From a virus, in the IMG/VR virus record IMGVR_UViG_3300035698_011327, positions 1 to 64,000 of that record: DNA of 64,000 nucleotides. One strand, written 5' to 3'. Below the pieces are notes generated by a model, which was given only the letters and a program-made list of their open reading frames with translations, was not told where the DNA came from and ran no database searches. Position 1 is the stretch's first letter, and the number at the start of each line of letters is the position of its first letter. Shown here one piece after another: positions 3,223 to 33,778 of this stretch. A program made the translations under genes and the position numbers.

Positions 3223-3462
3223 ATGGATACTACCCTTCCTAATATAATGTTCTTGACGTTAAGGAGCATGAGAAAGAGAGTAGGGATAATTTGTAGCAAC
3301 GTATCGTGCTATATTGATAACGTTGATTCTACTACAATTTGCTTTATTGGTGATCGTCAAGATAGCATAATCGTGCTGGAAAAGTTCGATGACATCACCT
3401 TTAAGCTGAGAAAAAGTGGAATCGATACTGCGGGAAGGAGGATGAGGAAGATTGATTGCTGA
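3223..3462 (+). CDS. FlbD-like small protein
   Basis: similar hydrophobic strand pattern ending IIVLEKFDDI; C-terminal RRMRKIDC. Confidence 0.45.
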   Translation: MDTTLPNIMFLTLRSMRKRVGIICSNVSCYIDNVDSTTICFIGDRQDSIIVLEKFDDITFKLRKSGIDTAGRRMRKIDC

Positions 3463-4192
3463 GCCAAAAACGATAGTACTTACGTGGGAAGGTAACGGCA
3501 GCAAGGCGCACGTTCTAATCAATAGCATTGTCTATTATGAAAAGAGCGTATCGGATAAATATACATGCTTATATGTTGTGAATGGGACTAATCTCAGAGT
3601 AAAAGAATATTGCGCTGCTATAACAAGAATGATAGAAGGCACGCCATTGAACGATGCTCAAAGAGACAGGCTGAGTAGGAGGATGGATGTAGAACAAGAG
3701 AATAATCAGTACGAAGAAGTATCCTTTGATGGTGCGAGCACGATTGATAGGTTTGCTACCGAGAATGAAGATCCAAGAGAGCATCTTGATATAAACGATG
3801 TCGAGAATTTTAATGTCGATCCAAACCTCCTCCCCGACGAAGGGCAAACCAATGGTGAGACATTGATCGCAAGGATGGGTAGACTTGAAGATAGATTAGC
3901 CCAAACGACAGACCGTGGCGAACAAAGGCTATTGGCCGATGCGCTTGATAGCGTTAGGGAGGAGATCTCAAGCCGATTTGAAGCCAATGGCTATGATAAC
4001 CCATACCATGCCTTCTCTGCTACTGAAATTGCCAATAGGACTGAAACTGAACTTAGGGCAAGGATGGATATATTACCTAGCCTTGTTCTTGCTGCTGATA
4101 CTGAAGAAGAAGAAATCAGCCTTACTGAGGAGATAGAATTAATTGAAAACGAGTTATTAAGAATGGCGGTCAACGATGATACACCCTTCTAA
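3452..4192 (+). CDS. FlbD-like N-domain plus acidic coiled-coil protein
   Basis: VLINSIVYY...TCLYVVNGTNLRVKE pattern; contains the duplicated RLSRRMD segment. Confidence 0.55.
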   Translation: MIAEPKTIVLTWEGNGSKAHVLINSIVYYEKSVSDKYTCLYVVNGTNLRVKEYCAAITRMIEGTPLNDAQRDRLSRRMDVEQENNQYEEVSFDGASTIDRFATENEDPREHLDINDVENFNVDPNLLPDEGQTNGETLIARMGRLEDRLAQTTDRGEQRLLADALDSVREEISSRFEANGYDNPYHAFSATEIANRTETELRARMDILPSLVLAADTEEEEISLTEEIELIENELLRMAVNDDTPF

Positions 4193-25206: not shown

Positions 25207-25974
25207 ATGAAAAGAAAGAGGAGGACATGTAAATGTGGGTGTGGAGATCCAGTGAAACTAGGTGGTGATCTATTTATACCAACATTGTCGATTAAGAAAA
25301 AGCTTGGTGAGATAGAAGAATATTATTTACATAAATATCAGGACAAGGGGATACCCCCTCTTCCAAAACTTGACCATAAAGAGGTCATTAAAGAGCTTTA
25401 TATTTTCAGAGAAGCAACGAATCTCTTACACCTTAAGACTATCCTTTCAAATGAGTTCTTGTGCTTTGAAGCAGCTCAAGGTCTTATGCTTGATCAGGAC
25501 TATGGAGATTTCCCTTACGTCACTCGTTCAAAAACAGGCATCGACTATGCGGCTAATTTCTGTTCCGGTCTGGGTATCGACATAGATAAGACGATCTATG
25601 TCACAAGAGCTTACAATACAAGACATGGTGCTGGGCCTCTTAGAGGTGAAGGAAAAATGGAGTCATTCTCAACTGGGATAGATGTAACTAATATCTATAA
25701 TAGTTGGCAAGACAGCCTAAGATTTGCTCCGATTAATCTTGATCGGATGAGTCAAGTTATCTTAAAAGATAGGGATATTTATAATCGGTCTGAAAAGATT
25801 CGGATGATGACTCACTTAGATACGATACCAGAAGAAACAAGGTCCATCATATTTGACGATGAGATACGCCTATCGAAAGGGGCTTTCATCGGAATAGCAG
25901 AGTATGCGTACGACATTGTCTCCTATGGTCCACGTAGATGGGATGTTGAATTAACAAAAGAATTATCATTGTAA
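25207..25974 (+). CDS. purA: chimera: HNH-type N-terminal peptide fused to the C-terminal half of an adenylosuccinate synthetase-like protein (possible pseudogene)
   Basis: MKRKRRTCKCGCG then FEAAQGLMLD.DYG.FPYVTRS, TRAYNTRHGAGP; N-terminal P-loop absent. Confidence 0.7.
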   Translation: MKRKRRTCKCGCGDPVKLGGDLFIPTLSIKKKLGEIEEYYLHKYQDKGIPPLPKLDHKEVIKELYIFREATNLLHLKTILSNEFLCFEAAQGLMLDQDYGDFPYVTRSKTGIDYAANFCSGLGIDIDKTIYVTRAYNTRHGAGPLRGEGKMESFSTGIDVTNIYNSWQDSLRFAPINLDRMSQVILKDRDIYNRSEKIRMMTHLDTIPEETRSIIFDDEIRLSKGAFIGIAEYAYDIVSYGPRRWDVELTKELSL

Positions 25975-26046: not shown

Positions 26047-26254
26047 TAGACGGTACTTTGAATGCTTACACGCAAATTATAGGTTCGAATCCTATAGTCC
26101 CCACCATTTTAGCAGATTGTGGCCATGGCCACTGGCCAAACGAGTCGCCAAGCGTCTTGGCGGGCCATTTTATGGGGACTTGGCGCAATTGGTGACGCAC
26201 TATCATATTGAGATAGCTTCAAAAGCAACGACAGCACTCTTGACTCACCGTCTA
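26047..26254 (+). ncRNA. Y-RNA-like module 1 with circularly permuted tRNA mimic (YrlA-like)
   Basis: closing stem TAGACGGT/ACCGTCTA; inside, T-arm and 3' acceptor strand with CCA precede 5' acceptor strand, D-arm and anticodon-like arm. Confidence 0.75.
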
Positions 26255-26580: not shown

Positions 26581-26618
26581 TCACATTTTATAAACCACAA
26601 TCTATGAAAGGAGCAACT

Positions 26619-28091
26619 ATGACTGAAAGGGAAACGATCAGCAGAAACCAGATTGTCTCTGGCCTCCTACGCATAGGCCATGGCGACTTGGGTATCTACC
26701 AAAGCGACGGTATTGCTGCGGCTAACGAGGATGCCGAATTATTTGGGCACTTCTTGTGCTGGAACAGCAAGAACGGTGAGGTTAGAGACTCTAAGGTTGC
26801 CTTTCCTGTGTTAGCCTTGAGAGGAATAGCGGACGATGAGCTATTTGAAAATGCGGTAGCCAATCTCTGCTTACTTGACCCAAGGAATTTCCTGAGGGCA
26901 GTAACCTACCACAAATCATTACCTGTAAAGGTAACGGATGGTGGAGGGGCCTTTCTTAAAAAGGCCGTCAAGATGTACCTTAAGCATAGGCAGCATGGAG
27001 GCTTACGGAACAGCGCCCTTCTTCAGCACAGAAAATCTATGAAGGCGTTGTATGCTCTTTATCACGAAACCCCTGATCCAGTTTCACAGGCAGTTCTTTT
27101 TGATAAGAAAAAGCCTAAAGGGTCTGTCTTTGAAGCAGTAGCTAACCTTAAAGATATGACACCTACGAAAGCCGCTGGTGAAATCATGACAAAGAAGATT
27201 CCATTCCTTGTCGCTGTCGGTGCTCTTGGTGGGATCAAAGATAAACCGGACGTCATAATCGCTTTGATGGATAGGATGTCTGGTAGCGAGTTAATCAATA
27301 ACACGAAATCCCTTAAGAGGATGGGCGTTTTTGAAAACCCAGTGCTTTCTGCCGCTTACGAACAAGCTTTGGAAAAAGTAAAAACGGACAAGAAAGTGTC
27401 AAGCCTTAAGGCTAGCGTTGCCGCAAAACAGGTAGGAGGCAAGGCTAAGAAGAAGATGAAGGCAGTCCAAGAGAAAAAGCTTGTTGACCTTGGAGGCATT
27501 AAAGGCGACTGGCTTGTTCTTGGAGATGCAAGTAGCAGTATGCATGCTTCTGTAGAGATTGCTAAGCAAGTTGCTGCTCTTATTTCTCAGCAAGCGTTAG
27601 GTACGGTTGACCTTATCTTCTTTAATCAAAATGTCATCAAGCATATAGATGCTACTAATAAGACTCTTGAGGAAATTGAGCACGAAGCAAGGCTTGTTAG
27701 GGCAGGCGGGATGACTTCTTGTGGCGCTGGAATCGACTATATCAAGCGTCAAGGAAGGGTTGTTAATGGTATAGCGATTATTACCGATGGTGGCGAGAAT
27801 CAATGGCCACATTTTAGCGATGCATATATTGAGTATTCAGACCTGCTTGGTATAAAGCCAGCCGTCTACATGTACCACATTAGTGGTGATCGGGATACTA
27901 TGAGTGTGCATTGTAAGCAGCAGCAAGTACAGACCGAGAGGTTTGAGCTTGGTCACGATGTAGACTATTACAGTCTGCCTAATCTTATTAAGACTATGAG
28001 AGCAAACCGCTATGCTTTGGTAGATGAGATGATGGAGATTCCACTTTTAACCTTAAAGGACGTTTTTAGCGGAAACGGAAAGAGATCATAA
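26619..28091 (+). CDS. divergent TROVE/Ro60-like protein with C-terminal vWA domain
   Basis: ~490 aa, basic helical N-region, MIDAS DASSSM, GGMTSCG, IITDGGEN; RBS favours 26619. Confidence 0.65.
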   Translation: MTERETISRNQIVSGLLRIGHGDLGIYQSDGIAAANEDAELFGHFLCWNSKNGEVRDSKVAFPVLALRGIADDELFENAVANLCLLDPRNFLRAVTYHKSLPVKVTDGGGAFLKKAVKMYLKHRQHGGLRNSALLQHRKSMKALYALYHETPDPVSQAVLFDKKKPKGSVFEAVANLKDMTPTKAAGEIMTKKIPFLVAVGALGGIKDKPDVIIALMDRMSGSELINNTKSLKRMGVFENPVLSAAYEQALEKVKTDKKVSSLKASVAAKQVGGKAKKKMKAVQEKKLVDLGGIKGDWLVLGDASSSMHASVEIAKQVAALISQQALGTVDLIFFNQNVIKHIDATNKTLEEIEHEARLVRAGGMTSCGAGIDYIKRQGRVVNGIAIITDGGENQWPHFSDAYIEYSDLLGIKPAVYMYHISGDRDTMSVHCKQQQVQTERFELGHDVDYYSLPNLIKTMRANRYALVDEMMEIPLLTLKDVFSGNGKRS

Positions 28092-28409: not shown

Positions 28410-28431
28410 CGGGGTCACCTTCGGGTGACCC
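28410..28431 (+). terminator. UUCG-tetraloop hairpin
   Basis: GGGGTCACC-TTCG-GGTGACCCC perfect stem; no U-tract on the + strand. Confidence 0.55.
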
Positions 28432-28445
28432 CTAAAGGGGCTTAC

Positions 28446-29225
28446 ATGGAAATCACCCTCCTAGATACAAACAATCTAGCTCAAGAATTACTCATCATGA
28501 GCAAAAATACCAGACATCTTGACGACCCTAATGTCTGGGATCAAATCTTAAAAATGTCCGAAGCAGAAAAAGCCAAAGAGCTTGAGTATGTCTTCGGCAC
28601 AATCACTTCTGCTTTTGAGTTTGTAGATTATGTCTTTTTACTTAGGGACGTAACAAGAGCATTCACCCACCAAGTCGTCCGACACCGAGTCGGGACAAGC
28701 TTTGCTCAACAGAGTATGCGTGTCGCCCCGGCAGAAGCCTTTAAATATTTCGTGCCTGATGACCTTGAGAGAGATCAGTATCAGATTGCCGTCTACGATT
28801 CAACTATGATGAGCATACAGGAAGGATACAATCTCCTCCTAAATAAAGGCACAGACGTACAAGACGCACGTGGAGTACTCCCAACGAATATCTGTACGAA
28901 TATACTGATGAAGATTAACCTCCGTGCTTTGGCGTTGCTTATGGAGACTCGACTCTGTATTCGTGCACAAGGTGAATTTCAACAAGTGGCCTTGGCTATG
29001 AAAGAGATCGTATCTGAAATCCATCCTTGGGCTGCTCACCTGTTGTTTCCGATGTGTGTTGCTAAAAACCACTGCCAATTTATAAATTTTAAAGAGTGTC
29101 CTTTAAAAAACAAGTATCCACACCTACAACCTATTAAAGGCGATCTCAAATCGAAAGTTGAGAATGATTGGATGAAACTAATGGAACATAATTACTCTCC
29201 GCAACCAAAACAATCTATCATATAG
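28446..29225 (+). CDS. thyX: flavin-dependent thymidylate synthase
   Basis: TRAFTHQVVRHR....FAQQSMR, DARGVLP, RLCIRAQGE. Confidence 0.9.
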   Translation: MEITLLDTNNLAQELLIMSKNTRHLDDPNVWDQILKMSEAEKAKELEYVFGTITSAFEFVDYVFLLRDVTRAFTHQVVRHRVGTSFAQQSMRVAPAEAFKYFVPDDLERDQYQIAVYDSTMMSIQEGYNLLLNKGTDVQDARGVLPTNICTNILMKINLRALALLMETRLCIRAQGEFQQVALAMKEIVSEIHPWAAHLLFPMCVAKNHCQFINFKECPLKNKYPHLQPIKGDLKSKVENDWMKLMEHNYSPQPKQSII

Positions 29226-29233
29226 GGGGCAAA

Positions 29234-30211
29234 ATGGCAAAGAAAATGTCGATAGATGAGATGACCGATATAATAACAAACCCAAAAAGAAAGGCGATGC
29301 TCGACATAGGCTGCGGAATGAATAAGCGCAGCGAAAACCATATAGGCATAGATATTTCTGCACGTGTAGAGCCAGAGATCGTCTGTGACGTGACGAAACA
29401 AGAACTCCCGTTTGAAGCTAATAGCATAGATGTCATTAACTCAGCCCATACTTTTGAACACTTCTCCAAAGAAGAACTCATGGTAGTTATGAACGAGTGC
29501 TGGAGAGTGCTTAAATGGGGAGGTGAGCTTTTCATTCAAGTTCCGCATAGAGATTGTGAATTAGCAGCACAAGACCCAACCCACAAGAACACTTTCGTTC
29601 AAAGCAGTATGAAGTTTTTCTGCGGAGACTATCTCGTTAAGTATGGCCTTGACTATCCGATCAAGTGTATCTTCCGTGAATTTATGAATACACACGATAA
29701 GGTGCCAGGAAAAGCTCCGACATATATCACGATGATAAAATTCGGCTTAAAAAAAGACTTGAAGCATTGGAGGAAACTTGTCGGGAAATTTCCTTTTGGT
29801 GGGAAACTTAAACAGCGTGCTCTTAAGCTTGACATGGTAACAGACGTTATAAAGGAGCAGAAAAAACTCCGCTTTGATCCAGAGTGGTATAGCGATACCA
29901 CTTGGAACACAAAGCATAACGTTGAATTCTCTGGTGTTATGAAGCGTACCGCTAAGCAAGCAATCAATAAGCACTTTAGAAGGATGATGAAGATAAAGGC
30001 TGATGCGACAAAGCGGTACGGCACGAACCCTGCTCACCTTGGGGTTAAGGGTCTTTTCGCAGACCTTAACAGGAAGAATGAAAGGCTGAAACAGTATATG
30101 TGGGAAGGTGAGAAGGTGACGTCAGAGGATATCAAAGATACGCTCTATGATAATGCTATATATTCAATATTAGCAGTCATGGAGATTGAAGAGGAGGAGA
30201 ATGATGTCTAA
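29234..30211 (+). CDS. class I SAM methyltransferase fused to a DUF1599/MazG-like helical domain
   Basis: LDIGCG, HTFEH, ECWRVLKWGG, QDPTH; C-terminal KRYG...RK.ERL...EDIKDTLYD.AIY. Confidence 0.7.
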   Translation: MAKKMSIDEMTDIITNPKRKAMLDIGCGMNKRSENHIGIDISARVEPEIVCDVTKQELPFEANSIDVINSAHTFEHFSKEELMVVMNECWRVLKWGGELFIQVPHRDCELAAQDPTHKNTFVQSSMKFFCGDYLVKYGLDYPIKCIFREFMNTHDKVPGKAPTYITMIKFGLKKDLKHWRKLVGKFPFGGKLKQRALKLDMVTDVIKEQKKLRFDPEWYSDTTWNTKHNVEFSGVMKRTAKQAINKHFRRMMKIKADATKRYGTNPAHLGVKGLFADLNRKNERLKQYMWEGEKVTSEDIKDTLYDNAIYSILAVMEIEEEENDV

Positions 30212-30614
30212 AGTATTAGAAGGGAAGGTTGTTGCAGTCGATTTCGATGGCACAATCGTAGGGTATACCGGCTGGAAAGGCGTAGGCGTTTTTGGTAAAG
30301 TCCTTGACGGTGCTAAGTGGGCGTTAGATCAGATGAAGAAAGAAGGAGCGACGATAATCATCAATACGTGTAGACGTGAAGTTGATATCGTGAACTCTTA
30401 TCTGATTGACAACGAAATAGAATTTGATTACATAAACTTTAACCCTGAGAATAAAAAACTTAAACTGAGTGATAGCAAAGTCAAGGCTGACTTTTATATC
30501 GACGACAAAGGTATATCATTCAGAGGAGATTGGCGAGAGACATATCTAAGCCTTATTAATTTCAAGACACATTGGGAGCGAGATGGCAGCGCCATATCGA
30601 GTGATACGGTTTGA
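30204..30614 (+). CDS. HAD-superfamily hydrolase
   Basis: VAVDFDGTI, IIINTCR, KVKADFYIDDK. Confidence 0.85.
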   Translation: MSKVLEGKVVAVDFDGTIVGYTGWKGVGVFGKVLDGAKWALDQMKKEGATIIINTCRREVDIVNSYLIDNEIEFDYINFNPENKKLKLSDSKVKADFYIDDKGISFRGDWRETYLSLINFKTHWERDGSAISSDTV

Positions 30615-30947: not shown

Positions 30948-31023
30948 GGTCTCATAGCTCAGCTGGAAGAGCCTTCGGCTCATAACCGAAATGTCCTTGG
31001 TTCGAACCCAAGTGAGACCACCA
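30948..31023 (+). tRNA. tRNA with CAT anticodon (elongator Met or Ile2)
   Basis: cloverleaf, TTCGG-CTCATAA-CCGAA, encoded CCA. Confidence 0.9.
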
Positions 31024-31024
31024 T

Positions 31025-31099
31025 AGTCCCATAGCTCAACTGGTAGAGCACATGACTGATAATCGTGGTACTTAAGTTCAATTCTTAATGGGACTACCA
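31025..31099 (+). tRNA. tRNA-Ile(GAT)
   Basis: cloverleaf, CATGA-CTGATAA-TCGTG, encoded CCA. Confidence 0.85.
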
Positions 31100-31118: not shown

Positions 31119-31868
31119 ATGGCGAAGAAACTGTATGAACTGTTAGCAACAGAAAGCGAATTGGCAGGGGTATTCAAGAATATTATAACCGAGACAGGGA
31201 CTAATTTCTTGAAGAAAGCAGATCGGTACACTGGGTACCATACAGAAGTCAAATATTTTGACGAGAGTGCTCCAAGAGAAGCAGATACTCACGTTAAAGT
31301 AGACGATACTGTTCCAAGTAAGCTTGCTTATACAGCTGGTCACATTACAGCGTATCTTGACGCCGTATTACAGAAAGAGTCTGCTAACCAAAAAGCCATG
31401 GCTGACGTCGTAATTGACGGCGTGGTTATAGCAACTGATGTACCAGCGACATTCCTTCTTGGGCTTGAAACTAAGTTAAAGAAAGTAAGGGACGAAGTGT
31501 ATGCGAAGATCCCTACATTACAACCCAGTATCCACTGGGATGTAGATACGAACGAGATGGAAGGTGTCTTCAAAAAGAGAGACTCTGATGAGAAATTCAG
31601 AACGAAGAAGATGATGAAGAACCATGTCCGTGCTGCCGCTACCGACAAACATCCTGCTCAAGTCGATGTCTATAATGAGGATGAGAAGATAGCAAGAATC
31701 GTTACGGATACCTGGTGTGGGATGATCTCTTCTGCTGAGAAGTCAAGGCTTTTGAATAAGGTCGATGCTTTAATCAGAGCAGTAAAGACCGCAAGGCAGA
31801 GAGCTAATTCTGTAAAGGTCGATGATGTGAAAATTGGCGAGAAACTTTTTGGTTTTATTAATTCATAA
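31119..31868 (+). CDS. coiled-coil protein of unknown function followed by a structured RNA
   Basis: 249 aa; VPATFLLGLE, ATDKHPAQV, AVKTARQRAN; strong RBS. Confidence 0.75.
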   Translation: MAKKLYELLATESELAGVFKNIITETGTNFLKKADRYTGYHTEVKYFDESAPREADTHVKVDDTVPSKLAYTAGHITAYLDAVLQKESANQKAMADVVIDGVVIATDVPATFLLGLETKLKKVRDEVYAKIPTLQPSIHWDVDTNEMEGVFKKRDSDEKFRTKKMMKNHVRAAATDKHPAQVDVYNEDEKIARIVTDTWCGMISSAEKSRLLNKVDALIRAVKTARQRANSVKVDDVKIGEKLFGFINS

Positions 31869-31871
31869 GAT

Positions 31872-32150
31872 TGGGATAGCGTCAGCTTCAATGCCTTTAA
31901 GAGTCAAGGCGCAAAACAAGCTAACCCCTGAAGGTTAGTCTTGAAACAAAGTCCATGGCTCAAGGTATCAAACTCAGATTCAAATTTAGCGTGAAACCCA
32001 ATAGCTTCAAGGCAGGGTTCTATAGAATTGTTGAAAGTCGATACACTACACCCTGGGTCGTGGGTTCGAATCCCTCCCCAGCCCCCAAAAATTATGGCTG
32101 GGTAGCTCAGTGGAAGAGCAAGGGTCTTAATCAAATTGATACGACTTTTC
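31872..32150 (+). ncRNA. ncRNA with hexamer repeats and a circularly permuted tRNA mimic
   Basis: T-arm 32060-32076, CCCAGCC-C-CCA, 8-nt linker, GGCTGGG, D-arm 32105-32119, ACCCT/AGGGT stem leading out. Confidence 0.7.
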
Positions 32151-32224
32151 AATATACTTCATAGACGAGCCGTCATAACTTATTACGCAATGGTTAATAT
32201 CCATTAAATAAAATGACATAGACA

Positions 32225-32259
32225 GGGGCGGTGGCTCAAGGAATGCTACCGCCCCATTT
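32225..32259 (+). terminator. probable intrinsic terminator
   Basis: GGGGCGGTGGC...GCTACCGCCCC followed by ATTT. Confidence 0.6.
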
Positions 32260-32270
32260 CAAACAGTTAA

Positions 32271-32349
32271 TGCGGGGTGGCCTAGTCCGGTCCAAGGCAT
32301 GTGGCTCATAACCACAAAATCGTGGGTTCGAATCCCACCCCCGCTACCA
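32271..32349 (+). tRNA. tRNA-Met(CAT), initiator-like
   Basis: cloverleaf with 1:72 mismatch, GCGGGG acceptor, TGTGG-CTCATAA-CCACA, CCA. Confidence 0.85.
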
Positions 32350-32848: not shown

Positions 32849-33778
32849 GTGAAAATGAAAAAGGGGCTATTTATTTTAATCGCTGTTATTATGTCGGCGT
32901 TTTTTCTGGTTAGATGCGGTAATGTTGTCCCGCCTGGGATGACAGTCATCATCGTAAAGCCTGATGGCGAGACTACCATCCACAAGAATGGGGCTTACAA
33001 AGCTTGGAACAGAGACAGAGCCTATTTTGTAGATGGCAAATTGAAGTCTTTTAAAAAGGACTTGAAGATACTTTGTGCTGACGATATCAATATGAGCGTA
33101 AGTGTAAAGTGGGTTGGGTCTTTTCTTGTTACAGACCAGACAATCAGTGTCATAAAGGCAAAGGTTCCTGCTAAGACTGCTAATATAGAAGGCAATGAAG
33201 TCCAGCAGCTATCTCTCGATGCGTTCTTTAGGATTGCGATGGCAGATATCATGTCAAGTATTACACGTGATACCGTATCGCCTTATAACACAGATAACAT
33301 CAGAGAGCAAAGAGACGTTATCCGTCAGGCTATAAAGAAAGAATTTCTTAAGCGGATGAAAGAGTTGAAGTATCCTATATCAACTGCCGACCTGCTTATA
33401 ACGAATCTTGATTATCCTAAAAATGTAACGGCGATGAGACAAAAGATCAAGCATGCTGAGCTAGCGGACTTAGAGAACGCTGCGATAGCAAAGGCGAATG
33501 TTGCTAAAGCTAAACGTGACGCTGAGCTTGAATCTGAGAGAGGCAAGGCGAGTATCGTTAAAGCCAAGATCGATGCTGCCGCTAACAAAATCAGATCGAC
33601 AAGTCTTACTCCAGCCATCCTTGCCGTAAAGCAACTTGAGACTTTAGTGACGCTTGCTCAAGGAACAAACAACACAGTCGTTGTAATCCCCTTTGATGCA
33701 ATCAGGCCTGGTGGTCTACAAGATACGATCCTGATGAAAAGCGCAATTGATAACGGGAAAAGGATAGCGACGAAATAG
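32849..33778 (+). CDS. SPFH/band-7 family membrane protein
   Basis: N-terminal TM/lipobox, VPPG, ITNLDYP, Ala/Glu coiled coil, SLTP.IL. Confidence 0.8.
   Translation: MKMKKGLFILIAVIMSAFFLVRCGNVVPPGMTVIIVKPDGETTIHKNGAYKAWNRDRAYFVDGKLKSFKKDLKILCADDINMSVSVKWVGSFLVTDQTISVIKAKVPAKTANIEGNEVQQLSLDAFFRIAMADIMSSITRDTVSPYNTDNIREQRDVIRQAIKKEFLKRMKELKYPISTADLLITNLDYPKNVTAMRQKIKHAELADLENAAIAKANVAKAKRDAELESERGKASIVKAKIDAAANKIRSTSLTPAILAVKQLETLVTLAQGTNNTVVVIPFDAIRPGGLQDTILMKSAIDNGKRIATK

What the first reader, a model, noticed from the sequence alone, without database searches (positions are those of the whole stretch)
31119..32259. Second protein-RNA pair: coiled-coil gene followed by hexamer repeats and a permuted tRNA mimic
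Seen: after the 249-aa gene come in-phase hexamers (AGCGTC AGCTTC AATGCC at 31878-31895; GGTATC AAACTC AGATTC AAATTT AGCGTG AAACCC at 31964-31999), then a tRNA opened at the anticodon: ACCCT, T-arm, CCCAGCC-C-CCA, AAAATTAT linker, GGCTGGG, D-arm, AGGGT, enclosed by AAAGTCG/CGACTTT, and finally a terminator-like hairpin. This topology resembles YrlA but lacks the clasp of the 26-kb array. Inference: a separate RNP in which an oligomer of the upstream protein coats the 6-nt periodic tract and displays a tRNA-shaped domain.
Basis: partly seen in the sequence, partly recalled or inferred. Interest (0 to 1): 0.72.

Follow-up and report, generated by a model that had tools for sequence, protein, structure and literature searches.

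The report
DUF7873 protein with tRNA-mimic RNA
A phage gene of unknown function (DUF7873) is followed by a folded non-coding RNA with six-letter repeats and a back-to-front tRNA look-alike; the same gene-RNA pair recurs in about a hundred unrelated phages and bacteria, so it is probably an undescribed protein-RNA unit resembling, but separate from, the Ro60/Y-RNA system.

Summary
Gene 31119-31868 is a full-length DUF7873 protein. It is followed by in-phase U-Y-A-G-N-N hexamers, with five units at 31968-31997. Next comes a YrlA-type permuted tRNA-like domain (32034-32148): T-arm, 7-bp acceptor hairpin with C-CCA, D-arm, 5-bp anticodon-type stem and an outer stem. A GC-rich hairpin lies at 32225-32255.

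All three RNA elements recur downstream of DUF7873 homologues. My covariance model finds the tRNA-like domain on the gene's strand in 22 of 23 first loci, 74 of 79 viral contigs and 25 of 57 bacterial genome loci. The 6-nt periodicity gives Z 12.9 over 84 independent spacers, with no codon signal. ORF 31955-32164 is not conserved. Only 1 of 10 phage genomes carrying the cassette has a detectable Ro60 (TROVE) gene.

The protein has no known fold and is predicted to self-associate as a symmetric dimer. Binding to the RNA, RNase P processing and function are inferred, not shown; no RNA reads exist. Many Bacteroidota chromosomal copies lack the adjacent RNA.

The scan has met this cassette before on other DNA (360 notes, at least 189 genomes), usually two-headed. 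This window holds a one-headed variant beside a separate Ro-like/Y-RNA array. I found no paper or Rfam family describing it.

The parts
31119..31868 (+). DUF7873 protein gene, 249 aa. It starts 20 nt after tRNA-Ile (31025-31099).
   Evidence: Pfam PF25283 228.9 bits against a cut-off of 27, covering 3-248 of the protein. phmmer finds 1992 representative clusters at E<=0.001, all about 250 aa. AF2 model pLDDT 94.3. No convincing PDB or BFVD fold match.
31875..31895 (+). Hexamer tract A: about three in-phase units, (A)UAGCG UCAGCU UCAAUG.
   Evidence: Sequence read. Closest relatives carry longer runs at the same place just after the stop codon, for example L021/L089, L022/L090 and L023/L115.
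31968..31997 (+). Hexamer tract B: five consecutive in-phase U-N-A-R-N-N units, UCAAAC UCAGAU UCAAAU UUAGCG UGAAAC. It is unpaired in the centroid fold.
   Evidence: Run of 5 against a shuffled mean of 1.5. Family hexamer profile: U 56%, Y 63%, A 64%, G 46%. Lag-6 Stouffer Z 12.9 and lag-3 Z -2.0 over 84 independent spacers. Centroid structure.
32034..32148 (+). Permuted (YrlA-type) tRNA-like domain enclosed by an outer stem 32034-40/32142-48. Inner 5-bp anticodon-type stem 32050-54/32121-25; variable-loop-like GGGTC 32055-59; T-arm 32060-76; acceptor 3' strand 32077-83; D-arm 32105-119.
   Evidence: Rfam YrlA 45 bits, E 8e-9, full-length match. Own model R1 scores it 75.9 bits, though it is a training sequence. 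Structure counts on 28 modules: T-arm 99% and acceptor 100% paired, and all 20 pairs show changes on both sides. The MFE fold recovers the same cloverleaf-like shape.
32084..32102 (+). Discriminator C plus CCA (32084-87), 8-nt linker AAAAUUAU ending in U(-1), and 5' acceptor strand GGCUGGG (32096-102). The predicted RNase P site lies between 32095 and 32096.
   Evidence: N-CCA follows the 7-bp stem in 61 of 79 independent modules and U(-1) occurs in 44 of 79. M. smegmatis YrlA, which has a 7-bp acceptor stem, is cut there by RNase P and carries CCA in vivo (PMC4201824). Cleavage here is inferred, not shown.
32225..32255 (+). GC-rich 11-bp hairpin with loop UCAAGGAAU, followed by AUUU. It is a divergent copy of the family's AGGNNA-loop hairpin.
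   Evidence: Sequence. A GC-rich hairpin with an AGGNNA loop occurs in 53 of 84 loci downstream of the module, against 0 of 84 on the opposite strand, 1 of 81 upstream of the gene and 0 of 84 inside the gene. The simple scan does not call it a terminator because the U-run is weak.
31955..32164 (+). 69-codon ORF overlapping tract B and the tRNA-like domain: a chance frame, not a gene.
   Evidence: No frame of consistent length or phase crosses the module in 22 loci. No Pfam or PHROG match. Spacers show no codon periodicity: lag-3 Z is -1.5 and -2.0.

Best explanation
The DUF7873 gene and the roughly 390-nt RNA after it are one functional cassette, most likely a ribonucleoprotein that does not depend on Ro60.

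Shown: the RNA has three conserved parts. These are a single-stranded track of U-Y-A-G-N-N hexamers, a tRNA-shaped domain (T-arm, 7-bp acceptor hairpin, D-arm) opened where the anticodon loop would be, and a GC-rich hairpin with an AGGNNA-type loop. All three travel with the gene across very distant phages and some bacteria.

Inferred:
1. The RNA is co-transcribed with the gene inside the phage tRNA array.
2. RNase P cuts at the 5' acceptor strand (32095|32096), and trimming exposes the encoded CCA (32087). This gives a two-piece tRNA mimic held together by its helices, as in M. smegmatis YrlA.
3. DUF7873, at least a dimer, binds the RNA, with the periodic hexamers as the likeliest repeated docking sites.
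4. The particle presents a tRNA elbow and acceptor end to tRNA-recognising factors. It may act as a decoy or adaptor in phage-host conflicts over tRNA, or as a scaffold in the style of a Y RNA.

The window's copy is a one-headed variant. Many relatives carry two tRNA-like heads.
For: Linkage of gene and RNA:
- Sub-threshold YrlA hits or T-arm/acceptor hits lie 100-400 nt downstream of the gene, on its strand, in named phages of Rhizobium, Vibrio, Arthrobacter, Gordonia, Klebsiella and Ralstonia. Every annotated record leaves that stretch gene-free or with only tiny ORFs.
- Model R1 finds the module in 22 of 23 loci, 74 of 79 IMG/VR loci and 25 of 57 genome loci. It never appears on the opposite strand at E<=1e-5.
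- On the protein tree, 89 of 95 rows outside one Bacteroidota clade have the RNA.
- No other neighbouring gene is conserved.
- The cassette also stands alone in a 674-kb Cytophagaceae contig among unrelated genes.

RNA features:
- Covariation in the helices.
- 6-nt periodicity, Z 12.9, with no lag-3 signal.
- AGGNNA-loop hairpin in 53 of 84 loci against 0-1 in controls.
- N-CCA in 61 of 79 modules and U(-1) in 44 of 79.

Ro-independence: TROVE is found in 1 of 10 phage genomes that carry the cassette.

Protein: confident model. The self-association prediction scores 0.67 against a best control of 0.00. That mark was reached by 20 of 30 proteins solved as pairs and 1 of 23 solved as single chains; runs agree in at least 88% of contacts and the partner's pLDDT is at least 82.

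Precedent for RNase P cleavage and CCA on a YrlA with a 7-bp stem: PMC4201824.
Against: - There is no transcript, end-mapping, binding or processing datum for any member.
- The protein is predicted as a symmetric dimer, not a ring or filament that would explain a 6-nt register.
- About 30 Bacteroidota chromosomal genes end in a plain terminator with no RNA nearby. The tree needs at least 11 gains or losses of the linkage. The protein can therefore exist without an adjacent RNA, although one such genome has a second, RNA-linked paralogue.
- Permuted modules also occur without a nearby DUF7873 gene (L167).
- The window phage also encodes a divergent Ro-like vWA protein 3.9 kb upstream on the same strand. 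The outer stem holds GUCGAUAC, close to the Rsr motif GNCGAAN0-1G, so Ro binding is not excluded here.
- The acceptor stems and T-arms in my first alignment were partly selected for pairing.
- An earlier scan check priced the binding claim at 22 in 100.
Confidence: 0.5

Rival explanations
1. It is an ordinary Y RNA (YrlA class) whose partner is Ro60/Rsr. In this phage that would be the divergent Ro-like vWA protein at 26604-28088; elsewhere it would be the host's Rsr. DUF7873 would then be an accessory or an unrelated neighbour.
For: The match to the Rfam YrlA model is full-length. GUCGAUAC in the 5' outer stem resembles the Rsr motif GNCGAAN0-1G (PMC4201824). The RNA lies 3.9 kb from a Ro-like vWA gene on the same strand, and that gene aligns weakly with the TROVE protein of phage RHph_TM30 through the MIDAS motif (E 0.005). 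RHph_TM30 has both a TROVE gene and the cassette.
Against: The score of 45 bits is below the gathering score of 69. TROVE is undetectable in 9 of 10 phage genomes with the cassette, including this one by Pfam. The conserved neighbour everywhere is DUF7873, not Ro. The GNCG-like motif is absent from the closest relatives (L021, L022, L027). The phage already has its own Y-like array next to the Ro-like gene.
Confidence: 0.15
2. It is a cis-acting 3' UTR or processing element with no stable particle. The tRNA-like domain recruits RNase P to define and protect the 3' end of the DUF7873 mRNA and to separate it from the next tRNA. The hexamers and hairpin tune mRNA stability, translation or termination. 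The protein does its (unknown) job elsewhere.
For: The RNA always lies 3' of the gene on the same strand, with no promoter-like or terminator-like site between them in the window. The RNase P determinants are conserved. The last hairpin is often followed by a U-run. A true tRNA often sits between module and hairpin. Some family members do without the RNA.
Against: An end-forming signal would not need a complete D-arm/T-arm elbow, two heads in many relatives, a sequence-specific 6-nt periodic track and a sequence-conserved hairpin loop kept across phyla. Permuted modules persist without the gene in L167.
Confidence: 0.2
3. It is a decayed remnant of tandemly duplicated tRNA genes, or a true permuted or split tRNA or tmRNA gene, with no link to the protein.
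For: Junctions of tandem identical tRNA genes score up to about 60-70 bits with my model. The locus sits in a tRNA array. CCA is encoded as in many phage tRNA genes.
Against: There is no anticodon loop, and ARAGORN finds no tRNA or tmRNA. The acceptor stem has C3-G70, not G3-U70. tmRNA_permuted scores 10 bits against a cut-off of 47. The module is conserved at one position relative to one gene in about 120 loci with compensatory changes. The outer and inner stems replace the anticodon arm consistently.
Confidence: 0.03

Closest known systems
YrlA-class bacterial and phage Y RNAs with Ro60/Rsr (Rfam RF02553; Chen et al. 2014, PMC4201824)
   Same: The topology is the same: 5'/3' stem, then T-arm, closed acceptor stem and D-arm. 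The match to the Rfam model is full-length. As in M. smegmatis YrlA, the acceptor stem has 7 bp, the determinant of RNase P cleavage and a CCA end. The RNA is encoded next to its presumed protein partner on the same strand, and it occurs in phages.
   Different: It scores below the family threshold (45 against 69 bits). The conserved neighbour is DUF7873, a 249-aa protein whose predicted fold matched no solved structure convincingly in my searches (best Z 8.8, rmsd 7.9), rather than a protein of the TROVE family; DUF7873 gave no TROVE match in Pfam. TROVE is undetectable in 9 of 10 carrier phages. CCA is encoded rather than added. The RNA also has a UYAGNN periodic track and an AGGNNA-loop hairpin, neither described for Y RNAs. 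The Rsr motif GNCGAAN0-1G is not conserved.
Two-piece (permuted) tmRNA with SmpB
   Same: The gene order is T-arm, acceptor 3' strand, CCA, then a spacer, then the acceptor 5' strand, with processing into two base-paired pieces. A small protein gene lies just upstream, as smpB does for ssrA in E. coli (from my own knowledge).
   Different: There is no G3-U70, no tag reading frame and no pseudoknots. It has a regular D-arm. tmRNA models score 10-13 bits and ARAGORN finds nothing.
TRAP bound to (G/U)AG repeats, and other proteins that read RNA in a fixed register (paramyxovirus N 'rule of six'; Cas7 backbones, 6 nt per subunit). From my own knowledge, as analogy only.
   Same: A short purine-containing motif (UYAG) is repeated with constant spacing in single-stranded RNA. 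This is the signature of a multimeric reader.
   Different: There is no sequence or fold similarity of DUF7873 to any of these. Only a dimer is predicted. Binding is untested.
Ro-independent tRNA-like RNA with another protein partner (idea attributed to Burroughs and Aravind 2016 in an earlier scan note)
   Same: The concept is a tRNA-like RNA platform working with a protein other than Ro60 in RNA-conflict or repair systems.
   Different: I could not open that paper. I therefore cannot say whether DUF7873 or this RNA is what they described. No paper in the library mentions DUF7873.

Membership tests
Pfam DUF7873 (PF25283) | Full-length match above the curated cut-off | tested here: met
   228.9 bits against 27; residues 3-248 match profile positions 2-242 of 244.
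YrlA / Y RNA (Rfam RF02553) | Score at or above the family's gathering threshold (69 bits) | tested here: not met
   45 bits in the window. Relatives score 29-38 bits.
YrlA / Y RNA (Rfam RF02553) | tRNA-like domain in the order T-arm, closed acceptor stem, D-arm, enclosed by the 5'/3' stem | tested here: met
   Alignment to the model, pair counts and folds.
YrlA / Y RNA (Rfam RF02553) | Encoded within about 4 kb of a Ro60/TROVE gene on the same strand (criterion of Chen et al. 2014) | tested here: inconclusive
   Pfam TROVE finds nothing in this genome. However, a 495-aa vWA protein ending 3.9 kb upstream aligns weakly with a phage TROVE protein. In 9 of 10 carrier phages no TROVE is found.
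YrlA / Y RNA (Rfam RF02553) | GNCGAAN0-1G Rsr-binding motif near the 5' end | tested here: not met
   The window has GUCGAUAC, with two mismatches. The closest relatives have no such motif. Motif taken from PMC4201824.
YrlA / Y RNA (Rfam RF02553) | Physical binding by Ro60/Rsr | not testable with these tools
   Needs immunoprecipitation or EMSA.
Permuted or split tRNA gene | Both halves together give a complete tRNA with an anticodon loop | tested here: not met
   The 5-bp anticodon-type stem opens into the outer stem and there is no anticodon loop. ARAGORN calls nothing at 32034-32148.
Two-piece tmRNA | G3-U70 alanine identity, tag reading frame, pseudoknots, and a match to tmRNA models | tested here: not met
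   The stem has C3-G70. tmRNA_permuted scores 10.3 bits against 47 and beta_tmRNA 13.5 against 84, covering the T-arm and acceptor only. ARAGORN finds none.
DUF7873-associated tRNA-mimic RNA (no published family; defined here and in earlier scan notes) | Permuted tRNA-like module on the gene's strand within about 1 kb downstream of a DUF7873 gene | tested here: met
   The window module starts 166 nt after the stop codon. The same arrangement holds in 22 of 23, 74 of 79 and 25 of 57 loci.
DUF7873-associated tRNA-mimic RNA (no published family; defined here and in earlier scan notes) | 6-nt periodic UYAGNN track between the gene and the module | tested here: met
   Five in-phase units at 31968-31997. 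Family Z 12.9.
DUF7873-associated tRNA-mimic RNA (no published family; defined here and in earlier scan notes) | GC-rich hairpin with an AGGNNA loop after the module | tested here: inconclusive
   The hairpin is present (32225-32255) but its loop is UCAAGGAAU, a near-miss to AGGNNA. The family figure is 53 of 84.
DUF7873-associated tRNA-mimic RNA (no published family; defined here and in earlier scan notes) | Two tandem tRNA-like heads (the usual form in earlier notes) | tested here: not met
   Only one R1 hit lies between gene and hairpin. The window's clade (L020-L022, L027, L087-L093) is one-headed.

The most novel reading that the evidence does not exclude
DUF7873 and its RNA form a new, Ro60-independent class of tRNA-mimic ribonucleoprotein. 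Copies of the protein read the UYAGNN track in a 6-nt register. RNase P opens the acceptor loop to give a CCA-ended, two-piece tRNA look-alike. The particle acts on the tRNA economy of the infected cell, for example as a decoy for defence enzymes that attack tRNA acceptor ends or elbows, or as an adaptor that brings tRNA-handling enzymes to a target.
Probability: 0.3. Interest if true: 0.85.

Novelty: new variant of a known kind. Interest (0 to 1): 0.74.

Why it matters
Y RNAs with Ro60 are so far the only described bacterial and phage particles built on a tRNA-shaped RNA other than tmRNA, and their function is still unclear. A second system would be informative. This one has a different, fold-orphan protein (about 2000 sequence clusters), a periodic protein-docking-type track and conserved RNase P determinants, and it sits inside phage tRNA arrays. 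It would show that tRNA mimicry is a recurrent platform.

It would also give a testable handle on what phages do with it, for example in counter-defence against tRNA-targeting systems, or in RNA repair or decay. Cultured carriers exist: Ralstonia RSL1, Rhizobium RHph_TM30, Gordonia GodonK, Klebsiella jumbo phages and Vibrio phages. Binding, processing and knock-out tests are therefore ordinary bench work.

This window adds a phage that carries both a Ro-like/Y-RNA array and the DUF7873 cassette. That is a natural setting for asking whether the two are separate.

Tried and rejected
Searches and tools that gave nothing:
- The search for homologous proteins timed out.
- Single-protein scans of viral contigs with the window protein and with P0005 found nothing. 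The 42-row alignment was too diverse for pattern search.
- A DNA search of the region against phage records matched only the flanking tRNAs.
- PHROGs had no family for the protein.
- Foldseek against PDB and BFVD, and VIA-align against 48,161 chains, gave no convincing fold. The best was 3kdq, an unknown-function protein, at Z 8.8, rmsd 7.9 over 147 residues, within the range common for helical models. A PDB profile search gave nothing. The protein atlas returned only DUF7873 clusters.
- No RNA holder is listed among the sequencing runs. All eight are salt-lake DNA runs.
- A promoter/terminator scan found no + strand site between gene and RNA.
- tblastn of six window neighbours against all loci showed no conserved synteny.
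'DUF7873' appears in no paper of the library. 'Permuted tRNA' plus 'phage' gave nothing relevant.

Readings considered and rejected:
- Coding ORF 31955-32164.
- A permuted tRNA or tmRNA gene.
- CsrA-type GGA loops for the hairpin: most loops are AGGCUA or AGGUUA.
- Hfq ARN repeats for the hexamers: only alternate triplets fit.
- Pairing between the hairpin loop and the hexamers: not consistent between L115 and L089.

Caveat on method: R1 also scores junctions of tandem identical tRNA genes. Whole-genome counts with it are therefore unreliable, and I did not use them as evidence.
Full report
**What is in the window**

The window is part of a 76-kb IMG/VR virus record, about 78% complete. The DNA runs that hold this stretch are labelled salt-lake metagenome; the top one holds 0.94 of the sampled words. 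All genes around the finding are on the + strand and are interspersed with tRNA genes.

Gene 31119-31868 starts 20 nt after tRNA-Ile. It is a full-length member of Pfam DUF7873: 228.9 bits against a cut-off of 27.

- the two hexamer runs;
- the outer stem AAAGTCG/CGACTTT (32034-40 with 32142-48);
- the 5-bp stem ACCCT/AGGGT (32050-54 with 32121-25);
- a T-arm (32060-76);
- a 7-bp acceptor hairpin CCCAGCC / GGCTGGG whose loop begins C-CCA (32084-87);
- a D-arm (32105-119);
- an 11-bp GC-rich hairpin at 32225-32255, followed by tRNA-Met at 32271.

Rfam's YrlA model aligns end to end with 32034-32151 at 45 bits, E 8e-9, below its gathering score of 69. ARAGORN finds no tRNA or tmRNA there. The 397-nt stretch folds better than all 100 shuffles, z -3.9. 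The second hexamer run is unpaired in the centroid structure.

**Is the RNA tied to the gene?**

tblastn found DUF7873 in 75 phage records with hosts from Rhizobium, Vibrio, Gordonia, Klebsiella/Serratia, Arthrobacter, Ralstonia and Rhodococcus to cyanobacteria. I fetched 14 representatives. In all of them the annotators left 270-1100 nt after the gene empty or with tiny ORFs.

Rfam gave sub-threshold YrlA or T-arm/acceptor matches at that place, on the gene's strand, in nine of them. A simple pattern search then showed one or two permuted modules in 13 of the 14. The exception is the Microcoleus phage, where a HEARO RNA sits inside the module.

I aligned 28 modules. The T-arm is 99% paired and the acceptor stem 100%, with changes on both sides at all 20 pairs and a covariation score of 0.80 against 0.22 in shuffles. 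These stems were partly selected for pairing, so the figures overstate independence.

A covariance model built from this alignment (R1) gave these results:
- an untrained copy in L024 at 54.5 bits;
- 74 of 79 further IMG/VR loci, all on the gene's strand and 98-736 nt after the stop; two of the five misses are cut by contig ends;
- 25 of 57 loci from species-representative bacterial genomes.

On a quick protein tree, 89 of 95 distinct rows outside one Bacteroidota clade have the RNA. Inside that clade 30 of 44 lack it, and the tree needs at least 11 gains or losses.

Those Bacteroidota genes end in a plain terminator. One such genome also has a 42%-identical paralogue followed by two modules. 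No other neighbouring gene of the window is shared between loci. In a 674-kb Cytophagaceae contig the cassette stands alone among unrelated genes.

It is met only in part, by one bacterial clade.

**The hexamers**

I tested the spacer between the stop codon and the module.
- In 23 loci, the match fraction at lag 6 exceeds dinucleotide shuffles with Stouffer Z 6.8. Lag 12 gives 3.9 and lag 3 gives -1.5.
- In 84 dereplicated loci that played no part in building anything, lag 6 gives Z 12.9 and lag 12 gives 6.6. Lags 2-5 and 7-11 are zero or negative.
- Coding sequence inside the gene shows the opposite pattern: lag 3 is +7.2 and lag 6 is -4.1.

The cyclic profile is U (56%), Y (63%), A (64%), G (46%), N, N. 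The window's run UCAAAC UCAGAU UCAAAU UUAGCG UGAAAC has five in-phase units against 1.5 in shuffles, and is among the best in the set. Over its whole spacer the window alone is only weakly periodic (z 1.6).

The absence of codon periodicity argues against translation of ORF 31955-32164. So does the lack of any frame of consistent length across the module in 22 loci. The second refutation test therefore fails as well.

**Further conserved features**

- Directly after the 7-bp acceptor 3' strand, N-CCA is kept in 61 of 79 independent modules. Meanwhile the loop length runs from 3 to 95 nt and the discriminator is any base.
- The base before the 5' strand is U in 44 of 79 modules.
- Long loops often pair CCA with UGG in an extension helix.
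- A GC-rich hairpin of 8-14 bp with an AGGNNA loop follows the module, often after a true tRNA. It occurs in 53 of 84 loci, against 0 of 84 on the other strand, 1 of 81 upstream of the gene and 0 of 84 inside it.
- The window's loop, UCAAGGAAU, is a near-miss to that motif.

**The protein**

phmmer over 1.84 billion representatives gives 1992 clusters at E<=0.001, nearly all about 250 aa. The AF2 model is confident, pLDDT 94.3, with four long helices and a sheet that includes a long hairpin.

None of the searches gave a convincing relative: Foldseek against PDB and BFVD, VIA-align against 48,161 chains, or a PDB profile search. The best was 3kdq, of unknown function, at Z 8.8, rmsd 7.9 over 147 residues.

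Four copies folded together gave ipSAE 0.67 against 0.00 for the best of three controls. That mark was reached by 20 of 30 proteins solved as pairs and by 1 of 23 solved as single chains. The runs agree in at least 88% of contacts, and the partner's pLDDT is at least 82. The interface is two-fold symmetric. The prediction therefore supports a dimer and says nothing about a 6-nt-register oligomer. It is not a measurement.

**Relation to Ro60 and Y RNA**

Chen et al. 2014 defined YrlA RNAs by their position within 4 kb of a TROVE gene and by a GNCGAAN0-1G motif. They also showed that the M. smegmatis YrlA, the one with a 7-bp acceptor stem, is cut by RNase P and carries CCA in vivo (PMC4201824).

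Here Pfam TROVE is found in only one of ten phage genomes that carry the cassette, RHph_TM30, about 6 kb from it.

The window phage has a 495-aa protein at 26604-28088 with a weak vWA match. It aligns collinearly, though weakly, with the RHph_TM30 TROVE protein through the MIDAS motif (E 0.005). It is preceded by its own permuted tRNA-like RNA (R1 38 bits at 26070-26206). The phage therefore probably has a Ro-like system of its own.

The 32-kb RNA lies 3.9 kb from that gene and has GUCGAUAC in its outer stem. I therefore cannot exclude that Ro also touches it. But the motif is missing in the closest relatives, and the conserved partner is DUF7873.

**How it most likely works**

Shown:
- a gene-RNA cassette with three conserved RNA elements;
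- helices kept by compensatory change;
- a periodic single-stranded track;
- conserved RNase P determinants;
- independence from detectable TROVE in most carriers.

Inferred:
- co-transcription within the tRNA array, since no + strand promoter-like or terminator-like site lies between gene and RNA;
- RNase P cleavage at 32095|32096 and trimming to CCA, by analogy with M. smegmatis YrlA;
- binding of DUF7873 dimers to the RNA, with the UYAGNN units as the likeliest repeated sites. Constant-register repeats are typical of multimeric RNA readers such as TRAP, Cas7 or paramyxovirus N (my own knowledge, analogy only);
- a role as a decoy or adaptor that offers a tRNA elbow and acceptor end.

I put 0.5 on the cassette being a Ro-independent RNP. 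I put about 0.3 on the full mechanism.

The rivals are:
- a Ro-bound Y RNA (0.15);
- a purely cis-acting 3'-end or processing element (0.2);
- a tRNA remnant, or a true permuted tRNA or tmRNA (0.03).

**Prior knowledge**

No paper in the library mentions DUF7873. Rfam 15 has no family for the hexamer track, the hairpin or the whole RNA.

The scan itself has met this cassette often: 360 notes in at least 189 genomes, mostly a two-headed form. One later check there kept the observation but priced the binding claim at 22 in 100. It named Burroughs and Aravind 2016 as the nearest idea in print. I could not open that paper.

My counts with a covariance model (94% of viral loci, 44% of bacterial loci) are higher than the word-pattern count quoted there. 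They come from loci chosen by similarity to this window's clade, and R1 is blind to divergent modules.

**What is particular to this window**

- It holds a one-headed variant.
- It has one of the clearest hexamer runs.
- It coexists with a separate Ro-like/Y-like array.

**Limits**

There is no expression, end-mapping or binding evidence. The tree is the quick version, not the finished careful search.

Noticed in passing
window 26070-26206 and 26604-28088: A second permuted tRNA-like module (AGTCCCC-A-CCA, about 65-nt insert, GGGGACT; R1 38 bits) lies upstream of a 495-aa protein. That protein has a weak vWA match, and its MIDAS region aligns with the TROVE protein of Rhizobium phage RHph_TM30 (E 0.005). 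Pfam TROVE itself does not detect it. It is probably a very divergent Ro60-like system.
   Followed up: partly
loci L087-L165 and L030-L086, 50-400 nt after the module; window 32225-32255: A GC-rich hairpin with an AGGNNA loop (AGGAUA, AGGCUA, AGGUUA and similar) is a conserved third element of the cassette. It occurs in 53 of 84 loci against 0-1 in three controls, and often follows an intervening true tRNA. What reads the loop is unknown.
   Followed up: partly
L073 (Bernardetia sp. chromosome), L038-L083 (Cytophagales and related MAGs): Chromosomal DUF7873 genes of one Bacteroidota clade mostly lack the RNA and end in a plain terminator. Genome G002 has such a copy (L055) plus a 42%-identical paralogue followed by two tRNA-like modules (L166).
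   Followed up: partly
L167 1200-1600 (- strand): Three T-arm-bearing permuted modules in a row, with no DUF7873 gene within 1.5 kb and no tRNA called by ARAGORN. This RNA appears to live apart from the protein gene.
   Followed up: no
L017 4744-5075 (Microcoleus phage My-WqHQDG): A HEARO (IscB omega-type) RNA, 129 bits, lies where the D-arm of the module should be. The acceptor strands GATACCC and GGGTATC are still present about 95 nt apart. This looks like a mobile-element insertion into the RNA gene.
   Followed up: no
L169, L170 and window 30987-31058: Junctions between tandem tRNA genes, above all identical copies, score 37-70 bits with the permuted-module model. Any genome-wide census of such RNAs must mask tRNA arrays.
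   Followed up: yes
window 32849-33775; L012 5227-6099 (Rhodococcus phage NiceHouse): In both phages a Band-7/SPFH-like protein follows the cassette and the next tRNA. The window match is weak (Pfam E 0.0015); NiceHouse is annotated band-7-like. No sequence similarity between loci was found by tblastn, so this may be coincidence.
   Followed up: partly
L075 about 3350-3480: A long run of CTGATTA/CTGGTAA heptamer repeats lies just after the terminator of an RNA-less DUF7873 gene.
   Followed up: no
window 28425-30614: The genes just upstream are nucleotide and sugar metabolism types: ThyX (Thy1, E 3.5e-35), a SAM methyltransferase with a DUF1599-like tail, and a phosphoheptose-isomerase-like PHROG. 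A truncated adenylosuccinate-synthetase-like ORF lies at 25207-25971.
   Followed up: no
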